The notes below the pieces were generated by a model, which was not told where the DNA came from, ran no database searches, and saw only the letters and a program-made list of their open reading frames with translations. From the NCBI RefSeq assembly GCF_009914755.1, contig NC_060925.1: a stretch of DNA of 64,000 nucleotides; one strand, given 5' to 3'. Numbering within the stretch: position 1 is the first letter of the stretch; every line of letters starts with the position of its first letter. The stretch comes from the human T2T-CHM13v2.0 reference genome, Homo sapiens. Made by a program: the position numbers and the translations under genes. Below, one piece after another: positions 40,215-61,520 of the stretch.

Positions 40215-41051
40215 GTGAGTCCTCCTCTCTCTCTTCATGCTTTTTAGTCCTTTAACTTTCTCAGGATCCTCAGGTTTAGTAGAGAAATAATCCCCTTTCT
40301 CCTTACGCACAAGAACATTTTCAAGGGTGAAATGGGGCAGTTGTTAGCTATCACTAAAGAAACACAAAAGGAGACAAGTGACAAGATTGCTGGATGGGTT
40401 TTGTTGAAGTACTCTTATTTAAGTAGTATTGTCATCATTATTAAATTAAAGCCAACATTTATTTAGCTCTTACTATTTGCTGGACGCTGTGCTGTGTGCT
40501 TTTAGACTGATCAATTGCAGATTTGCAGGGTCATATTAAACTGCTTGGGACTGTCAAGAGAACATCTGTTACAATCTTTTTTCTGATTTAGAAGTTTTAA
40601 AAATTAAACTGTTTCAAACTTAAAATGTAAATAACTGCCATGTTTCCAACATGTGTAGTGGAAAAAAATGGTTAGTATATGCAGAATTTTGCAAACCATT
40701 AAGAAATAAATGTCCCAATAGATAAACGAGCAAATTACATAGACAGGTAATTGACAAAGTCCAAATAACCAGTGAGTAATCAAAGAAATACAAATTGAAA
40801 TGAATCACCATCAAACAAAAAAAAAGGGATGGCATTTTGTTACTCATGAAATTGGCAAATTTTTTTTTAAATGATAATATCCAGTGATGGTAAGGTTGTG
40901 GGAAAACAAGAAATTTCATAGGATACTTTGGTAAGTTGATATGACTTTCTGGAGGGCAATTTGTCAGTGCAGATGAAAAGTCTTCCCATTTTAAAGATGG
41001 GAAACTTAAGGCCTAAGAATCTAAGTGACTTGCTTAAAGTTACAAAGTCAT

Positions 41052-43275: not shown

Positions 43276-44926
43276 TAGAGCTCACCCTCTTAACCACTTC
43301 ATAGATTGTCTGAATCTTGGAATATGGGTCCATAGAGGTCTCCTTCTATTTGATTTCAGGCAGCCTTGGGTTAGCTTGGAGCTCTGGGTCACTCTGAGCA
43401 TGTCTACCCAGGGTGTGCTTCAGAGTCACTAGAAAGTTGAGGGGTTTTGGGATTAGGGATAACGCCAGGGAATCCTGGGCCCTACTTCCACCTTCAACCA
43501 TAATTGATAAAATAGAGAGCTTTTCTCATTTACTTAACTTCTCTTGTCCAGTTTTTGAGTAGCTAGTAACCTATAGGAAAGTGGGTGGGACAGTCACAAA
43601 AAAATGTGTCCTAATGTGATCCTAACCTCACTATGACCTAGTGCTATGTTGTCATTTGCTTAGAGGGGTATGTTGTATAAAATATGATTTAAAGAAAAAC
43701 AAGAACAACCCTAAACCAGTGTGCTTTTTGCCATGAGAAAACAGAATTGGGTGTTTAAAATGAGAATGTGTTCAACGCTAGCTTCATCTTCAGTTTCCCA
43801 GTCTCCCTTTGACACCCCCTCCGTGTGTCATGACCTTTTCCATGACCTTCAGGGACTGGGCCTTCTGACTTATACAAAAGCCTCCTCTTTGGAAAGGATT
43901 TGAACCTTGGAGAGAATTTAAGAGATGAGTTGCCTTTTCCTAGAGCATTTACATTTTAAACTTTATGCTCACTTGTGGCATGAGAGATTCTGTTTCCTGC
44001 TAAAGCAATTTCAGGCAGTAGCAAATAGGTGGGGAAAGAGCTTTACAGGAGGAAATCCTTTAGGGTCTCCCTGTGATTCATGCACACGGTCATCTGGACC
44101 TGCTAGGGATAATTTTCCTCACTTGGTTAGTAATAATAACAACAACTACACACTTATGAGCAGTTGTTCTGCCAGGCATTTGTGGCCAGTGCTTGGCAGG
44201 CAGTATCTTTTTGAACCCTCACACTCATCTGTGAGGACAGTTTCCCTTCATAGATTAAGAACCCGAGGTCCAGAGATGTTATGCAACCTTCCTAGGGACA
44301 CAGAGCTAGTAATAGGTAGAGCTAAGATTTGAACCCAGGTCTTTCCAGCGCCAGACCCTGAATTTGTAGGATTAGTGCCTTCAGGATGACATGGAGGGAC
44401 CTCACTGCCTTGATCTGTTATTTATCAAGAGTCAAACTGGAAAAGGCTGTCAGGGAAACCTCCAGGCTGCATCTTGGGCAAAGATTGGCTTGAAACAGGC
44501 ATTTCCCAAGCCTGGCCTTGGACACCAACTGTAAAAAAAAGGCCATTACTGGTGTTTCCTTGGTTAGTTCTGGGTATAAGTTCTGGATCCTCACTCATCT
44601 CATCTGCACTGACATCCTCACTCACGGCATTTAGAGACTTAACACGCCAGCCTCTGTGTGAGCATTTACCTCTTTCAACCCTCACCATAATCCCACAAGG
44701 AGGCACAGTTCTTTTACCCATTTTGAAGATGAAGAAACACAGTCTCAGAGAAGTTCGGTCACAGTATCACAAGGAGGTAAGTAGCAGAGCTGGGATTGGA
44801 GCCCCGGCCTTTGTGATCCCAGAGCACCAGCAATACCGTCTCGGCCTCGGCTCCTGGGTTATACCCTCTGTCACGCCAAGCCCATCAGCCCGCTTGTGCT
44901 GTCTCCCTCTGTCTGTCCTAGTTCGG

Positions 44927-45011
44927 ATGGAGATGGCGAGTTCTGCTGGCTCCTGGCTCTCTGGCTGCCTCATCCCTCTCGTCTTCCTCCGGCTGTCTGT
45001 GCATGTGTCAG
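44927..45011 (+). CDS. ERMAP: ERMAP signal-peptide exon (join 44927-45011,45246-45593,49520-49636,50212-50244,51638-51670,53381-53401,54513-54533,54632-54658,54750-54776,56997-57712; 475 aa, Scianna blood group, butyrophilin family)
   Basis: MEMASSAGSWLSGCLIPLVFLRLSVHVSG; acceptor at 44921, donor G|GTAGGA; the exons sum to 1428 nt. Confidence 0.97.
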
Positions 45012-45245: not shown

Positions 45246-45593
45246 GCCACGCAGGGGATGCCGGCAAGTTCCACGTGGCCCTACTAGGGGGCACAGCCGA
45301 GCTGCTCTGCCCTCTCTCCCTCTGGCCCGGGACGGTACCCAAGGAGGTGAGGTGGCTGCGGTCCCCATTCCCGCAGCGCTCCCAGGCTGTTCACATATTC
45401 CGGGATGGGAAGGACCAGGATGAAGATCTGATGCCGGAATATAAGGGGAGGACGGTGCTAGTGAGAGATGCCCAAGAGGGAAGTGTCACTCTGCAGATCC
45501 TTGACGTGCGCCTTGAGGACCAAGGGTCTTACCGATGTCTGATCCAAGTTGGAAATCTGAGTAAAGAGGACACCGTGATCCTGCAGGTTGCAG
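45246..45593 (+). CDS. ERMAP: ERMAP IgV exon
   Basis: 348 nt; AELLCPL...EVRW...EYKGRTVLV...DQGSYRC butyrophilin-type IgV. Confidence 0.98.
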
Positions 45594-46033
45594 GTTAGAA
45601 TGGGTTTGAGGTGCCCAGGGTCATTTGTGGCAATTGGACAAGCTTAATCAGGACCTACTTTGTCTCTCCATGTCTAGACTTTTCTTTCATCTGCAGTGTA
45701 GTTTTTACTTGCCAGGATGGCTCAGCCTTACCCAGCCATGTCCATTGATCTCAGCTGAGGCTGTGAAGCTGGCCTAGGCATTTCTGATAAGGAAGGAACT
45801 CAGACTTTGGAAAACACTGTACAATGCAGGTCCTGGTTAAATAGGGCTTGGAGGCTCAGATAATAGCTTTTCCTCCCTGGGTCATCTTTCTATGCTCCAT
45901 TATCAAGGAACTCATTACATGGCTGTAAAGAAATGTCTTCAAGGGACAGATCCCCTGCTGTGACAGGATTTACTTAATGGGTCCTCTCCTGGGGTTCCTG
46001 AGAAAGTAAAGGGTTAGGAAGGGAGAGATAGTG

Positions 46034-46358
46034 TTTTTTTTTTTTTTTCTTTCTCTCTCTTTTTTTTTTTTTTTTTTTGTTTTGAGATAGGGCCTTGCTC
46101 TGTTGCCCAGGCTGGAGTGCAGTAGTGCAATCATAGCTCACTGTAGCCTTGACCACCTGGGCTCAAGTAATCCTGCCACCTCAGCCTCCCAAGTAGCTGG
46201 GACTACACATACACTACCATGTCTGGTTAATTTTTTTTTTTACTTTTAGTAGAGACAGGGTCTCCCTATGTTTCCTAGACTGGTTTCCAATCCAGCAATC
46301 CTCCCCGCTTGGCCTCCCAAAGTATTGGCATTACAGGTGTGAGCCACTGCACCCAGTT
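46034..46358 (-). mobile_element. Alu (AluJ)
   Basis: Reverse-complement dimer. Confidence 0.88.
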
Positions 46359-46656
46359 GAGAGTGTTCTCAAACTAGCTTCAATATTTAAAAAAAACAGT
46401 TTACTGAAAATCAGTCCACAAAAATCAGTCTACTAATATTTTAAAAAATCAGTCTACCAAACCAAACCCAACTCAACCCAACCCAAACCATGTCTTTGCA
46501 TTTGCTTGAATGACACTGGCTTCACATGGTCACATGCTGATTATCTTTTGGTCATAATTTGAAGTCACACACCATGAAGTGGGGATGAATCAATTACTTT
46601 AAAACACTCAGTAGTTGGTAGACAGACTTTCCAAATTGGAGTCCTTTGGGGTGAAA

Positions 46657-47148
<492 letters not shown>

Positions 47149-47388
47149 GAAAAGTAATTTTTAAAAGGGGACCGAGGTGCCCACAGGAATCTGAATCATG
47201 TGATACAGTTATTGCTATGGGTGAATTTTTAAATGTCTGAGAATAAAGCTAGAGACTGGCTTATCCCATTAGGAGGAGCGTGGGGAGAGAGTGGAGAGAG
47301 GACAAGTTCCATTAACAGCTGCCCCTGTTCATCACAGGAGGCTATGGGGGAAGAGGGCCGTGGCCAGGACCATACCCTGGCAGAGGCC

Positions 47389-47617
47389 CTGCTGGTGTGC
47401 AGATAGGTGGGATGGTTCCCAGAGCCCTGGGCCAAGTGGAGAGAACCTCAAGGCAGGGTACTTCCATCCCTGTCAGAGGCCCACTCTCTGGAAAAAGCTG
47501 GGCTCTTCCAAATAGCAGTGTCTAGCAGAGTCAGGGACAGCACACTGGGGAATGTGTCCTGAACCATCCACAACATGGCCCTTGGCCAAGAGAAGACCAC
47601 AGCTGTGGTCATAACAA
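47389..47617 (+). pseudogene. ERMAP: Decayed butyrophilin IgC pseudo-exon in the ERMAP intron between the IgV and TM exons
   Basis: LLVCR*VGWFPEPWAKWREPQGRVLPSLSEAHSLEKAGLFQIAVSSRVRDSTLGNVS*TIHNMALGQEKTTAVVIT, then a phase-1 A|GTAAAA donor. Confidence 0.92.
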
Positions 47618-48194
47618 GTAAAAGCTGGGGTGGAAACAGGTTTGAAGGCGCTGGTGGTTCCTGAGGAAATTCCTACCCTAGCAGGAACTTTTTGAGGAAT
47701 TTTCAATTTTTTTAAATTCTAAGAATAAAGCATATATATTGTAGAAAATTTGAAAAAAATCCAAAATATTTAAAGGAAACTGAAAAATGGCCTATAATAG
47801 CTTAAATTAGAGAGAACTGCTGCTAACATTTTTGTATCTTTCTTGCAAGACTTTTTTGTATATATGTATCTCTGAGCATGTATGTTTACACATGTGTATT
47901 CTTGTGCCCAGGATATTTTTCCACTTATGATGTCATGAGCATTTGTTTTCTTTGCCCATGTCCCTAAGTAATATGATTTTAAGGGCTGCATAGTATTTTG
48001 CCATGTGGCTATAGAATAATAAAATTAATCAAAGCCCTGTTTCTGGGCATCTGGATGCTTTCCAAATTTTCCTCATATTATAATGAAGGGTGCAATGAAC
48101 ATCTTTGAACGTATTTTGGAAAGTGATTTTGATTTTTTTTTTAATAATGTACTTCTGGCAGTAGAATTAATGGGTCCAAGGGTTCAAACCTTTT

Positions 48195-48338
48195 ACTTAT
48201 TTTTTCTTTTTTATTTATAATAAAGATGAGCTCTCACCATGCTGCCCAGGCTGGTCTGAAACTCCTGAGCTGTAGTGATACTCCTGCTTCAGCCTCCCAA
48301 AGTGCTAGGATTACAGGTGTGAGTCACCACACCTGGCC
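48195..48338 (-). mobile_element. Alu monomer (FLAM-like)
   Basis: Left-monomer reverse complement; a + strand Alu fragment follows at 48368-48476. Confidence 0.75.
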
Positions 48339-48968
48339 TGAACCTTTTAATGATCCTTGAAACGAACTGGAGACCAGCCTGGCCAACATGGCAAAACCTT
48401 GTCTCTACCAAAAAAATACAAAAACTAGCCAGGCATGGTGGCATGTGCCTGTAATCCCAGCTACTTAGGAGACTGAATGCTTTATATGACTGACCTCTTT
48501 AAATCTCTCCAAACCTCAAAGAGATAAGGAGTCCTGTCATGCACACATTTTACAGATGAGGGACAATGGGCTGGGAGGTGCTCAGTCTCCTGCTTTGGGT
48601 CACACAGCATTGAGCAAGGACATACTCCCAGCTTAGGCTCTTAACCACTTCTACCCATAGCCCGCTTCTGCTCGTTTCCTCTCCTCTATTTCCTCTTTCT
48701 TTTCCCCTTTCTCTCCTGCCTAGGCTTCAGGCCTACTGCTGCGGCATCATAGAAATTGCTTTGCCCCCGTGGACAGTGCTCAGGGCAAAGAGGTTGCTGC
48801 CTGCTCTTCTAGAGCAGAGTGAGGATTGACAGGGGTAAACAGGCAGGTGCTCCTGGGAAGACTGGAGGTGTGTAGTGAGGAGAGTGCCTTCAGTCCTCTG
48901 AAGTCCCGGGCTTATTTTTCCATTGAATTATAGGGCAGGATGAGATTGTGGTCAAGAAGTTTGTTTAA

Positions 48969-49364
<396 letters not shown>

Positions 49365-49519
49365 TGAGTTATCAGAGAAGCAAAGAGCCTCTTGGCCGGA
49401 GCTCTCTCCCTAGAGGTGATGGAGAGTGTTGGGATGTGCTGGAGCCGCCTGCCATCTGAGGCATGCCAGAAGCCCTTAGACATCTCCCTGAGGTCAGTCG
49501 TTGGTGGTTTCTGTTTCAG

Positions 49520-49636
49520 CCCCATCTGTGGGGAGTCTCTCCCCCTCAGCAGTGGCTCTGGCTGTGATCCTGCCTGTCCTGGTACTTCTCATCATGGTGT
49601 GCCTTTGCCTTATCTGGAAGCAAAGAAGAGCAAAAG
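49520..49636 (+). CDS. ERMAP: ERMAP transmembrane exon
   Basis: APSVGSLSPSAVALAVILPVLVLLIMVCLCLIWKQRRAK; AG/GT boundaries. Confidence 0.96.
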
Positions 49637-59451: not shown

Positions 59452-59749
59452 AGTTTGGTATTTGTGTTTTGGTATGCTGTTATTTTCATTGTGAATGAGG
59501 AGTTGTGGGGAAGGTAAGAGATTGGTTTCCAAAGAGCTTTGAGTCCCCCAAGGCAAGGTTTAGCCACCGTTCATACTAAAGCCATAGTTTTATTCCTGAG
59601 TCTGCTCTCTAGTATTTTATTTTATCAATTTATAAACAAATAGTGTTCATAAGGCACACATATTTCACTCAACCATATTCAGTTCCAAACATGCATTCCT
59701 GAATATCCCAATCTTAAAACTAACTCACATTGTCAGCTTGTGGAGGCAG

Positions 59750-60195
59750 AATACATGCATACATATACACATACATACATGAATATACATATAATATACA
59801 CACACATATGCATACATACACATATACACATGTATACATGTATGTGTATATACATATCTGTACTACATAGGTGTATATATATGTATATGTATTTAGCATG
59901 TATGCACGTGTATATGTATACACATATATACATATGTATGTATAATACATATTCACACATGTATGCATGTATATACACATGTATACATTAGTATATGTAT
60001 ATACACATGTATGTGTATTATACATGTATATATGTACATACATATCAGTCTACTGATTTGAATATTAATGTCATCAAGAAATAACCTCAATATATGTATG
60101 TATTATAACCTTACAACTATATAAAACATACATACATATATATGTATATATGTATACACATACACATGCATGAGAATATATGTATGTATATATAA
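59750..60195. repeat. (TACA/TATG)n low-complexity microsatellite
   Basis: Direct inspection. Confidence 0.93.
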
Positions 60196-60789
60196 TATCC
60201 TCACAGTAATTCTGCCAGGGATTTTATGGGGGAGGGAGTTGGTACTCCAAATGGCTAGGTGGTAGAGCCAGAGTTTTATACTTGGTTTATCTAGCTCTGA
60301 AGGCAATGCTCCTTGTTCTTTGCACTGAAACATTGTGCAGATACGAGAAGCCTGTAGTTTACGTATTTCATTAGCCTTTTATTATTTTAAAAAATAAAAC
60401 CTGAAAAAAAAGACCTAGTCCTGGATACTTTGGTGATCTTGTTGTGTCTGGATTGACGAACACGTGTCAGGCTTAATTAGGGATGCACGCGGAACCCGGG
60501 AAAATCCCTGCTCAGGGGGGCTGGAAGACCTGGAGGTTGATCCTTGAACAGGGTACTTTTAGCTTCTCCGATAAGGAGATTGGGTTATTTTATCTTTAAA
60601 CTCCCTTCCAGCTCTACCCTCCTTTGATTTTAAGTTATAAACCTTGAGTGAGGTGCCAGACTCTAGGCTTCGTTGGACGTCTACAGGACGGTCAAGGATT
60701 ACCAACTCAAAGTAAAGAAGGAAATTTGAGTACTTGCCCCCTTGGAGGTTGTGTAGGTTGGCTATACAGATTCTACAACTTCCCAGACG

Positions 60790-61520
60790 AGTGGCCCTGA
60801 GACTTGGGGCTGAACGCGCGAGCACGGAAAGAAATCCCACCGTAGGACGGAACCCAGTCTCTTCAGCTCCATCCTAAACTTCGCAAGTTTTCTCTGAGTC
60901 TACGCGCTTCCTTAGGACTACAACTCCCAGCATGCCACGCCAGCGGTCAAAGCTTATTGGTGGTCCCGCCAGGTCGCTTGCGTTGTGGCAGTCATGGTAG
61001 CCAATGGAAATAAAGAATTATCCCAAGAAACCAATCCTGGAGTAGTAGGGCGGATCCTTCCTGGGTTCCGGCTCCGGCTCCAGCTCCTTCCCTCGCCTAC
61101 AGAGGCGGCGCTGTCCCTGATCGAGCGGCGGGAGCGAGGTGGGTCCGGGTTGGGCCCGAGGTCGCGGGGGGAGGCGGACACGACTTCGCGGGAAACTCTG
61201 TACACGGCCACTTCCCTCTCACCGAGGATCTGGATGCTGCTGCTTTGCTCCCTGGACCGAGTGGGAAGCCAAGGGGCCTTGTGGTCCCTCCGCCGCGACC
61301 CTCGGCCCTGGCCCCCGGCCCACGCAGCCAGGTGGCTGTCCCCAACCCATTCCCCGGCCCTTCTGTTGGGTTTGAGTATACAGCCTTCCTGCCGCTGACC
61401 ATACGTTTAGGATCAGCCCCTCCTCCTCTCCCACCTCTCTGGCCCCAAGCCCGCCGGCAATCTCTGAAACCAGCTCTTGTACCCTTGGACCTCCGCCATT
61501 GGCTTCTCCCCGCCCCGCAA
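60790..61520 (+). promoter_or_regulatory. ZNF691: CpG-island promoter (ZNF691 by synteny) with ZNF143/THAP11 motif, CCAAT boxes and an E2F-like site
   Basis: ACTACAACTCCCAGCATGCC at 60917-60936; CCAAT/ATTGG at 60956, 61001 and 61031; TTCGCGGGAAA at 61185-61195; donor GAG|GTGGGT at 61138. The gene name comes from recalled gene order, not from coding sequence in the window. Confidence 0.75.

What the first reader, a model, noticed from the sequence alone, without database searches (positions are those of the whole stretch)
47336..47623. Fossil IgC exon in ERMAP: the human protein lost its second Ig domain
Seen: between the IgV and TM exons, a frame missed by the ORF track reads LLVCR*VGWFPEPWAKWREPQGRVLPSLSEAHSLEKAGLFQIAVSSRVRDSTLGNVS*TIHNMALGQEKTTAVVIT. 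It matches the butyrophilin IgC pattern C-x-S-x-G-W-[FY]-P-x-P-x3-W...G-L-[FY]...N-V-S-C-x-I-x-N-x2-L-G-Q-E-K. The conserved Ser is TAG (47404) and the second disulfide Cys is TGA (47560). It ends at a weak phase-1 donor (A|GTAAAA, 47617/47618), the phase needed to join the TM exon. The first ~18 codons are not recognisable; the nearest AG (47336-47337) would give 280 nt, a frameshift. Known: most butyrophilins, and as I recall mouse Ermap, are IgV-IgC. Inference: lineage-specific exon loss shortened the ectodomain of a red-cell/immune ligand, so mouse data may not transfer. Residual inclusion would act as a poison exon.
Basis: partly seen in the sequence, partly recalled or inferred. Interest (0 to 1): 0.82.

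Follow-up and report, generated by a model that had tools for sequence, protein, structure and literature searches.

The report
Dead IgC exon inside human ERMAP
An intron of the human red-cell gene ERMAP holds the broken remains of the exon that encodes a second immunoglobulin domain in most other mammals, which explains why the human protein has only one such domain.

Summary
Window 47338-47617 (+), between the IgV exon (45246-45593) and the TM exon (49520-49636) of ERMAP, reads as a butyrophilin-type IgC domain. Its 51-codon middle piece hits Pfam PF22705 at E 4.1e-15 and BTN1A1/BTN2A1 structures at E 4.5e-9 to 3e-7.

It is the ortholog of an exon that is intact in ERMAP of most placental orders, including mouse-genus rodents, tree shrew and two strepsirrhine primates. 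It is 69-72% identical to them. It nests inside their clade at 100/99 support, and all 13 human BTN/BTNL/SKINT1L IgC exons fall outside.

The human copy is dead:
- TAG replaces a conserved Ser (47404).
- TGA replaces the invariant second Cys (47560).
- The first 18 codons match orthologs at 0 of 18 positions, against 62 of 75 for the rest.
- It is 280 nt where orthologs imply 282.
- Its donor is poor.

No RefSeq transcript uses it, and 15 of 15 haplorhine ERMAP proteins retrieved lack IgC.

The poison-exon idea and the date of the loss are untested. That human ERMAP lacks IgC is already in print; I found no report of the relic.

The parts
47338..47617 (+). Pseudo-exon: relic of the ERMAP IgC exon. 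It is 280 nt from the nearest acceptor AG to the phase-1 donor; orthologs imply 282 nt.
47338..47391 (+). The 5' 18 codons of the relic, which no longer resemble any ortholog in any frame. In orthologs this part holds six invariant residues, and all six are lost here.
   Evidence: 0 of 18 identical; 6 of the 8 violated invariant columns lie here; frameshift-aware search not significant, 56 of 200 shuffles as high
47392..47616 (+). Recognisable 75 codons of the IgC domain. 62 of 75 are identical to the majority residue of the orthologs.
47398..47400 (+). TGC, the retained first disulfide Cys of the IgC domain.
47404..47406 (+). In-frame TAG at a column where orthologs have Ser (at least 90% conserved).
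47407..47559 (+). Stop-free middle piece (51 codons), used for the profile and structure-sequence searches.
   Evidence: PF22705, E 4.1e-15; BTN1A1 E 4.5e-9; 65% identical to the Mus cluster representative
47560..47562 (+). In-frame TGA at the invariant second disulfide Cys.
   Evidence: column 76 invariant Cys
47318..47337 (+). Candidate acceptor: pyrimidine-rich tract (13 of 18 in -20..-3) ending in cacag. If used, it gives a 280-nt exon, which shifts the frame.
47615..47623 (+). Donor CAA|gtaaaa at the position where the ortholog exon ends. It is the only ERMAP coding-exon donor in the window that lacks G at both -1 and +5.
   Evidence: colinearity
47523..47525 (+). TAG that would be the first stop if the 280-nt segment were spliced in after the IgV exon. 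This is the out-of-frame reading.
45246..45593 (+). ERMAP IgV exon (annotated, coding). It ends in phase 1 with ...ILQVA.
49520..49636 (+). ERMAP transmembrane exon (annotated, coding). It is joined directly to the IgV exon in all full-length human transcripts.

Best explanation
Window 47338-47617 is the dead remnant of the ERMAP IgC exon.

Shown: ERMAP of most placental orders has the exon order IgV, IgC, TM, as butyrophilins do. On the human lineage the IgC exon was disabled by four lesions:
- a nonsense codon at a conserved Ser;
- a nonsense codon at the second disulfide Cys;
- scrambling of the first 18 codons, with a net 2-nt length change;
- a donor that lacks both consensus G residues.

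The spliceosome now joins the IgV exon straight to the TM exon. Both junctions are phase 1, so the frame is kept, and human ERMAP is an IgV-only protein.

Inferred: the loss was tolerated because an IgV-only isoform made by skipping this in-frame cassette exon already existed. Such precise-skip isoforms are annotated in mammals that still have the exon.

Inferred: the loss is old, at least before the catarrhine-platyrrhine split and possibly in the haplorhine stem, because no haplorhine ERMAP protein retrieved has an IgC domain.

Today the segment is most likely inert intron sequence.
For: - Sequence and stops.
- IgC identity: Pfam PF22705 E 4.1e-15, 56 bits against a cut-off of 27; BTN1A1/BTN2A1 structures E 4.5e-9 to 3e-7.
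- Orthology:
  - One strong intron hit per ortholog, E 1e-31 to 9e-33, 69-72% identity.
  - 71 of the 72 proteins returned by the IgC-region search are ERMAP-locus proteins that carry PF22705. They span rodents, lagomorphs, carnivores, perissodactyls, pigs, camels, bats, eulipotyphlans, pangolins, xenarthrans, afrotherians, Tupaia, Nycticebus and Microcebus.
  - Careful tree of 46 rows: the ERMAP clade including the human relic has 100/99 support, and 13 of 13 human paralog IgC exons fall outside. The quick tree of 94 rows gives 99.
  - Best human paralog is 43% identical.
- Position and phase: 93 codons in one frame, ending where the ortholog exon ends.
- Lesions.
- Not used: 0 of 9 RefSeq ERMAP transcripts include it, and it is not repeat-masked.
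- Haplorhines: 15 of 15 retrieved proteins (Carlito, Sapajus, Macaca, colobines, Hylobates) have no IgC match at E <= 1e-5.
- Pre-existing skip isoform: Microcebus (P0160/P0203) and Jaculus (P0127/P0213) each have both forms, and the short form joins ...TLQVA directly to APSPG..., as in human.
Against: - The recognisable 75 codons are no more diverged from the mammalian majority residue than a typical functional ortholog. Human has 13 differences; the ortholog median is 13 and the range 7-20.
- Normalised to IgV plus the B30.2 exon, the human ratio is 1.5 against a median of 1.13, and 10 of 55 functional orthologs are as high. So the sequence itself gives no clear sign of long neutral decay, and the date rests only on which proteins are annotated.
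- Absence of an IgC isoform from an annotation does not prove the exon is dead in that species. I had no DNA of other primates, so I could not see whether the stops are shared.
- The short isoforms in other mammals are gene predictions. Some may have been modelled on the human protein.
- Inside the ERMAP clade the relic does not group with the strepsirrhines. Its placement there is unresolved, on a long end branch of 0.34 against a median of 0.12.
- The Mus representative is M. spicilegus. I did not see the M. musculus sequence itself.
Confidence: 0.9

Rival explanations
1. The relic still works as a regulated poison exon. Occasional inclusion brings in a premature stop, sends the transcript to nonsense-mediated decay and so tunes ERMAP output.
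For: A usable-looking acceptor (cacag|G, 13 of 18 pyrimidines) and a GT donor flank it. Inclusion would give a stop at 47523, far upstream of the last junction. The 75 recognisable codons are not more decayed than functional orthologs, which could be read as residual constraint.
Against: 0 of 9 RefSeq transcripts contain it. The donor lacks G at both -1 and +5, unlike every other ERMAP coding-exon donor in the window. Protein-level similarity is not what a poison exon would conserve, and the mild ratio (1.5 against a median of 1.13) lies within the range of functional orthologs. No RNA data were available.
Confidence: 0.06
2. The segment is a fragment of another butyrophilin gene that was copied into the ERMAP intron, not a lost ERMAP exon.
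For: Butyrophilin IgC exons are similar to one another, and Pfam and PDB name BTN proteins as the best annotated matches.
Against: The best human paralog, BTN1A1, is 43% identical, against 69-72% for ERMAP orthologs. The tree puts it inside the ERMAP clade at 100/99 with all 13 paralog exons outside. It has the strand, order and exon end expected of the ERMAP exon. It is not repeat-masked and shows no sign of a retrocopy.
Confidence: 0.01
3. The IgC exon was only ever an alternative cassette exon. It has been lost repeatedly in mammals (haplorhines, colugos, hystricomorph rodents and others), so the human state is one case of recurrent, possibly selected, shortening of the ectodomain rather than a single neutral accident.
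For: Only IgC-less ERMAP proteins were retrieved for Galeopterus, Cynocephalus, Cavia, Chinchilla, Octodon, Erethizon, Fukomys, Sorex, Suncus, Talpa, Pteropus, Chrysochloris and Elephantulus. Same-species pairs of long and short isoforms exist.
Against: These are annotations, not genomes. Close relatives disagree: Galemys has IgC and Talpa does not; Rhynchocyon has it and Elephantulus does not. That fits incomplete annotation as well as it fits loss. Nothing here tests selection.
Confidence: 0.2

Closest known systems
ERMAP IgC exon of other placental mammals (for example Microcebus P0160, Nycticebus P0145, Tupaia P0149, the Mus cluster P0148)
   Same: Same gene, same place between the IgV and TM exons, and the same 93-codon register and exon end. 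Identity is 69-72% over the recognisable part. The first Cys and the G-W-F-P, G-L-F and G-N-V-S/L-G-Q-E-K stretches are shared.
   Different: The human copy has two in-frame stops, an unrecognisable first 18 codons, a net 2-nt length difference and a poor donor, and it is in no annotated transcript.
IgC domains of human butyrophilins (BTN1A1, BTN2A1/2, BTN3A1-3, BTNL3/8/9, BTNL2; Pfam PF22705)
   Same: Same domain family and the same exon-per-domain, phase-1 layout. The profile match is above Pfam's cut-off.
   Different: They are paralogs only, 27-43% identical to the middle piece, and lie outside the ERMAP clade. They are intact and expressed.
SKINT1L, a butyrophilin-related gene known to be inactivated in hominoids (PMC4382165; title and abstract seen in the listing)
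   Same: Another lineage-specific inactivation within the BTN-related family in primates. Its IgC exon was the fourth-best hit in the human genome after the segment's own match.
   Different: There the whole gene is a pseudogene. Here only one exon died, and the gene stays functional with a shorter product.
MOG, the other IgV-only member of the family (as stated in PMC6017450; passages seen)
   Same: A butyrophilin relative whose ectodomain is a single IgV domain.
   Different: I did not test whether MOG holds an IgC relic. MOG also lacks B30.2, which ERMAP keeps.

Membership tests
Butyrophilin-type IgC domain (Pfam PF22705, C2-set_3) | Profile match above the curated gathering score | tested here: met
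   56 bits against a cut-off of 27, E 4.1e-15, profile positions 25-74 of 87, for the 51-aa stop-free piece. The two flanking pieces (22 and 20 aa) gave no match on their own.
Butyrophilin-type IgC domain (Pfam PF22705, C2-set_3) | Both cysteines of the intradomain disulfide | tested here: not met
   The first Cys is kept (47398-47400). The second, invariant in 62 of 62 ortholog rows, is TGA (47560-47562).
Butyrophilin-type IgC domain (Pfam PF22705, C2-set_3) | Uninterrupted reading frame over the whole domain | tested here: not met
   Two in-frame stops. The first 18 codons are 0 of 18 identical to orthologs and could not be recovered in any frame.
Orthologous ERMAP IgC exon | Lies between the IgV and TM exons of ERMAP, on the gene's strand | tested here: met
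   47338-47617 (+) lies between 45246-45593 and 49520-49636. Ortholog proteins have the order IgV, IgC, TM.
Orthologous ERMAP IgC exon | Closer to ERMAP IgC domains than to any paralog | tested here: met
   ERMAP clade including the relic at 100/99, with 13 of 13 human paralog exons outside. 69-72% identity to orthologs against at most 43% to paralogs.
Orthologous ERMAP IgC exon | Same exon boundaries and phase (phase 1 at both ends) | tested here: inconclusive
   The 3' end and its phase agree with orthologs. At the 5' end the nearest AG gives 280 nt rather than 282 nt, and the ancestral acceptor cannot be placed without ortholog DNA.
Orthologous ERMAP IgC exon | Disabling lesions shared with other haplorhines (dates the loss) | not testable with these tools
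   No primate genome DNA was available. There is only indirect evidence: 15 of 15 haplorhine proteins lack IgC.
Poison (NMD) exon | Inclusion brings in a premature stop | tested here: met
   A model splice of IgV + 47338-47617 + TM gives TAG at 47523.
Poison (NMD) exon | Observed inclusion in transcripts | not testable with these tools
   No RNA-seq was available. 0 of 9 RefSeq transcripts include it.
Poison (NMD) exon | Nucleotide conservation above the flanking intron | not testable with these tools
   There was no other primate DNA to compare.

The most novel reading that the evidence does not exclude
The ERMAP IgC exon was an ancestral in-frame cassette exon, so placental mammals made both a long (IgV-IgC) and a short (IgV-only) red-cell and immune ligand. 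Several lineages, haplorhine primates among them, independently fixed the short form by killing the exon. That would point to recurrent selection on the height or binding surface of the ectodomain rather than to neutral decay. The human relic might also keep a residual role as an NMD-triggering exon.
Probability: 0.15. Interest if true: 0.6.

Novelty: new member of a known kind. Interest (0 to 1): 0.38.

Why it matters
ERMAP carries the Scianna blood group antigens. Recent papers treat it as a B7/butyrophilin-related immune regulator (abstracts and passages seen).

The relic gives a genomic reason why the human ectodomain is a single IgV domain while the rodent proteins retrieved here have IgV-IgC. 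This difference should be kept in mind when mouse knock-outs, antibodies or Fc fusions are used to model the human protein.

It also adds a clean example of domain loss by the death of one exon in a gene that stays functional. With primate genomes it would offer a datable marker.

The practical weight is modest, for three reasons:
- The domain difference itself is already in reviews (PMC6017450).
- Short isoforms are annotated in other mammals too.
- Human IgV-only ERMAP-Fc is reported to act on mouse cells.

Tried and rejected
- **Chance similarity:** rejected.
- **Inserted BTN fragment:** rejected.
- **Structured RNA or other element in the intron:** Rfam at gathering thresholds found 0 matches in 45594-49519. 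The ORFs on both strands of 47200-47700 are short (30-77 aa), and only the IgC-frame piece has a family match.
- **Recovering the missing 5' third of the exon:**
  - tblastn at E <= 50 over the whole intron found nothing for those residues.
  - A frameshift-aware profile alignment over 47250-47391 scored 22.6 against a null of 20.9 +/- 3.8; 56 of 200 shuffles scored as high. Its suggested path, partly upstream of the AG, is therefore not claimed.
- **Dating the loss from excess divergence:** no clear excess.
- **Recoding of TGA as selenocysteine at the Cys position:** considered and dropped, because a TAG and the scrambled 5' part also break the domain. It was not tested further.
- **Grey-seal isoform X2 (P0020):** its N-terminus reads the IgC exon out of frame. 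I first took this as a hint of decay in carnivores. I dropped it because an elephant seal protein and many other carnivore proteins have an intact IgC.
- **Literature:**
  - Searches found no paper that describes a relic IgC exon in human ERMAP.
  - Afrache et al. 2012 and Su et al. 2021 are not held.
  - Ye et al. 2000, Xu et al. 2001 and Su et al. 2001 were not available. Any of these five may already state the human-mouse domain difference or the relic.
  - My memory that Ye et al. 2000 describes two Ig folds in mouse Ermap is recall only.

Full report
**What is in the sequence.**
- It has TAG at 47404-47406 and TGA at 47560-47562.
- It ends at A|GTAAAA (47617|47618).
- The segment lies in ERMAP's intron between the IgV exon (45246-45593) and the TM exon (49520-49636), on the gene's strand.
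- It is not repeat-masked; the masked stretches nearby are 46649-47171 and 47685-47790.
- It is part of none of the 9 RefSeq ERMAP transcripts.
- Rfam finds nothing in the intron.
- The other ORFs on both strands of 47200-47700 are short and unremarkable.

**Is it more than chance?** Yes.
- The 51-codon stop-free piece, 47407-47559, matches Pfam PF22705, the butyrophilin Ig-C domain. E is 4.1e-15 and the score 56 bits against a curated cut-off of 27, over profile positions 25-74 of 87.
- It matches the sequences of solved BTN1A1 and BTN2A1 structures at E 4.5e-9 and about 3e-7.
- The two short flanking pieces give no match on their own.

**Whose exon is it?** In the human genome the best match other than itself is the IgC exon of BTN1A1, at 43% identity. 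It is followed by BTN2A2, SKINT1L, BTN2A3P, BTN2A1, BTNL2, BTNL8, BTNL9, BTNL3 and the BTN3A genes. So there is no recent donor copy.

To reach orthologs despite the length filter of the protein search, I proceeded in two steps:
1. I searched with the B30.2 exon. This returned a marmot ERMAP-locus protein (P0007) that carries PF22705.
2. I searched with the IgC region of that protein.
   - 72 proteins passed. 71 of them are ERMAP-locus proteins with PF22705. One is annotated as a ZNF691 isoform, and the 72nd is a turtle butyrophilin-like protein.
   - They come from rodents (including a Mus cluster of 32 members), lagomorphs, carnivores, perissodactyls, pigs, peccary, camels, bats, hedgehog, desman, pangolins, armadillo, anteater, aardvark, tenrec, manatee, tree shrew and two strepsirrhine primates (Nycticebus, Microcebus).
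   - No haplorhine appears.

Searched back against the intron, these orthologs hit one place only, 47389/47392-47631, at E 1e-31 to 9e-33 and 69-72% identity.

Two trees agree:
- A careful maximum-likelihood tree had 46 rows: 30 ortholog rows chosen from 77, 13 human paralog exons, two turtle proteins and the relic. It puts the relic inside the ERMAP clade with 100/99 support, and all 13 paralog exons fall outside.
- A quick tree of all 94 rows gives the same split at 99.
- Inside the clade the relic's place is unresolved, and its end branch is long (0.34 against a median of 0.12).

The alignment is significant, and the segment is closer to ERMAP orthologs than to any BTN or BTNL gene.

**Colinearity.**
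- Ortholog proteins read ...TLQVA, then about 94 IgC residues, then APSPG..., which begins the TM exon.
- Human IgV ends ...ILQVA and the human TM exon begins PSVG... after the split codon.
- From 47338 to 47616 the human frame holds 93 codons, the same number as the ortholog exon, and it ends one base before a GT. So the 3' boundary and its phase agree with the orthologs.

**How it is broken.** The comparison uses 62 ortholog rows of equal length.
- The 75 codons from 47392 on are identical to the majority residue at 62 positions.
- The 18 codons before them are identical at none.
- 8 of the 17 invariant columns are violated. Six lie in the 5' part; the others are the second Cys (now TGA) and a Met to Val change.
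- The TAG replaces a Ser that is at least 90% conserved.
- The first Cys is kept.
- A frameshift-aware search for the missing 5' part in all frames of 47250-47391 is not significant; 56 of 200 shuffles scored as high. That part has been scrambled or replaced in a way I cannot resolve without ortholog DNA.
- The nearest acceptor, cacag|G at 47336-47337, has 13 of 18 pyrimidines upstream. It gives a 280-nt exon, 2 nt short of the 282 nt implied by the orthologs.
- The donor CAA|gtaaaa is the only one among ERMAP's coding exons in the window that lacks G at both -1 and +5. That such donors are weak is established knowledge, not a score computed here.
- If the segment were spliced in, the frame read would be the one, and the first stop would be TAG at 47523.

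**When and how.**
- All 15 haplorhine ERMAP proteins retrieved lack any IgC match. They are from tarsier, capuchin, macaques (up to isoform X14), colobines and gibbon.
- Two strepsirrhines and Tupaia have the domain.
- This points to a loss before the split of Old and New World monkeys, perhaps in the haplorhine stem. It rests on annotations only.
- The sequence does not help with the date. The 75 recognisable codons differ from the majority residue at 13 positions, which equals the median of functional orthologs (range 7-20).
- Relative to IgV plus the B30.2 exon, the human ratio is 1.5 against a median of 1.13, and 10 of 55 orthologs are as high.
- ERMAP's Ig domains evolve fast in general, so relaxed constraint is hard to see at the protein level.
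- Microcebus and Jaculus each have both a long isoform and a short one that joins IgV to TM exactly as in human. By the listings, several other species have both forms too.
- I infer that skipping of this in-frame exon existed before its death, which made the loss tolerable. These are predicted models, and some may have been built on the human protein.

**Comparison with what is known.**
- That human ERMAP has no IgC domain is stated in a review (PMC6017450, passages seen).
- None of my searches found a paper that describes the relic.
- The papers most likely to mention it were not held or not available: Afrache 2012, Xu 2001, Su 2001, Ye 2000 and Su 2021 (for two of them).
- Two papers use a human ERMAP-Fc and report effects on mouse cells or in mice. 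One specifies residues 30-145, that is, the IgV domain only (PMC12070682, Methods passage). The other is PMC8590358 (figure-legend passage).

**Verdict.**
This is the fossil of the ERMAP IgC exon.
- It is a new example of a known kind of event, the death of one exon with loss of a domain, in a gene whose domain difference was already known.
- The poison-exon role, the date and possible recurrent loss in other mammals remain open.

Noticed in passing
Proteins P0009-P0018; P0016: ERMAP proteins predicted for whales, hippopotamus, deer, sheep and cattle are short (332-412 aa) and list no Ig-domain Pfam match. The cattle protein P0016 joins a signal peptide to only the last 33 residues of the IgC domain and then the TM segment. 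The ectodomain may have been reduced in a different way in that clade, or the models may be incomplete.
   Followed up: partly
Protein P0134; window 59472-61094: A pocket-mouse protein named 'zinc finger protein 691 isoform X1' (655 aa) carries the ERMAP V-set and IgC domains plus zinc fingers. This is a read-through model that joins ERMAP to ZNF691, which is also the next gene downstream of ERMAP in the human window.
   Followed up: no
Protein P0020: Grey seal ERMAP 'isoform X2' begins with about 75 residues that are the IgC exon read in the wrong frame, and they resemble the human frame. This is probably an annotation artefact from an alternative start, since other carnivores have an intact IgC.
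   Followed up: partly
(proteins P0201, P0202, P0207, P0208, P0211, P0221, P0224, P0225, P0227, P0232, P0240, P0242, P0243): Only IgC-less ERMAP proteins were retrieved for colugos, five hystricomorph rodent genera, shrews, mole, Pteropus, golden mole and elephant shrew. This could mean further independent losses of the exon, or only that the short isoform was the one annotated.
   Followed up: partly
L004 = chr1:48043534-48043680 (-), SKINT1L: The IgC exon of the transcribed pseudogene SKINT1L is still an open frame of 136 aa. It was the fourth-best match to the relic in the human genome after the relic's own match (39% identity).
   Followed up: no
L015 = chr12:42911717-42911851 (-), intergenic: A very weak IgC-like match (E 6.7, 38% over 45 residues, two TAG inside) in intergenic DNA. 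It is most likely chance.
   Followed up: no
Window 44729-45011: Three predicted ERMAP transcripts (XM_054334083, XM_054334084, XM_054334089) start translation 198 nt upstream of the RefSeq start (44729 instead of 44927), in an unspliced first exon that begins at 40218. This would add 66 residues before the signal peptide. The longer capuchin and macaque proteins (494-546 aa) may be models of the same kind.
   Followed up: no
PMC11568790: A whole-blood study lists ERMAP among its strongest splicing-QTL genes. The junctions involved are shown only in supplementary figures, which were closed, so I could not see whether they touch the IgV-TM intron.
   Followed up: no
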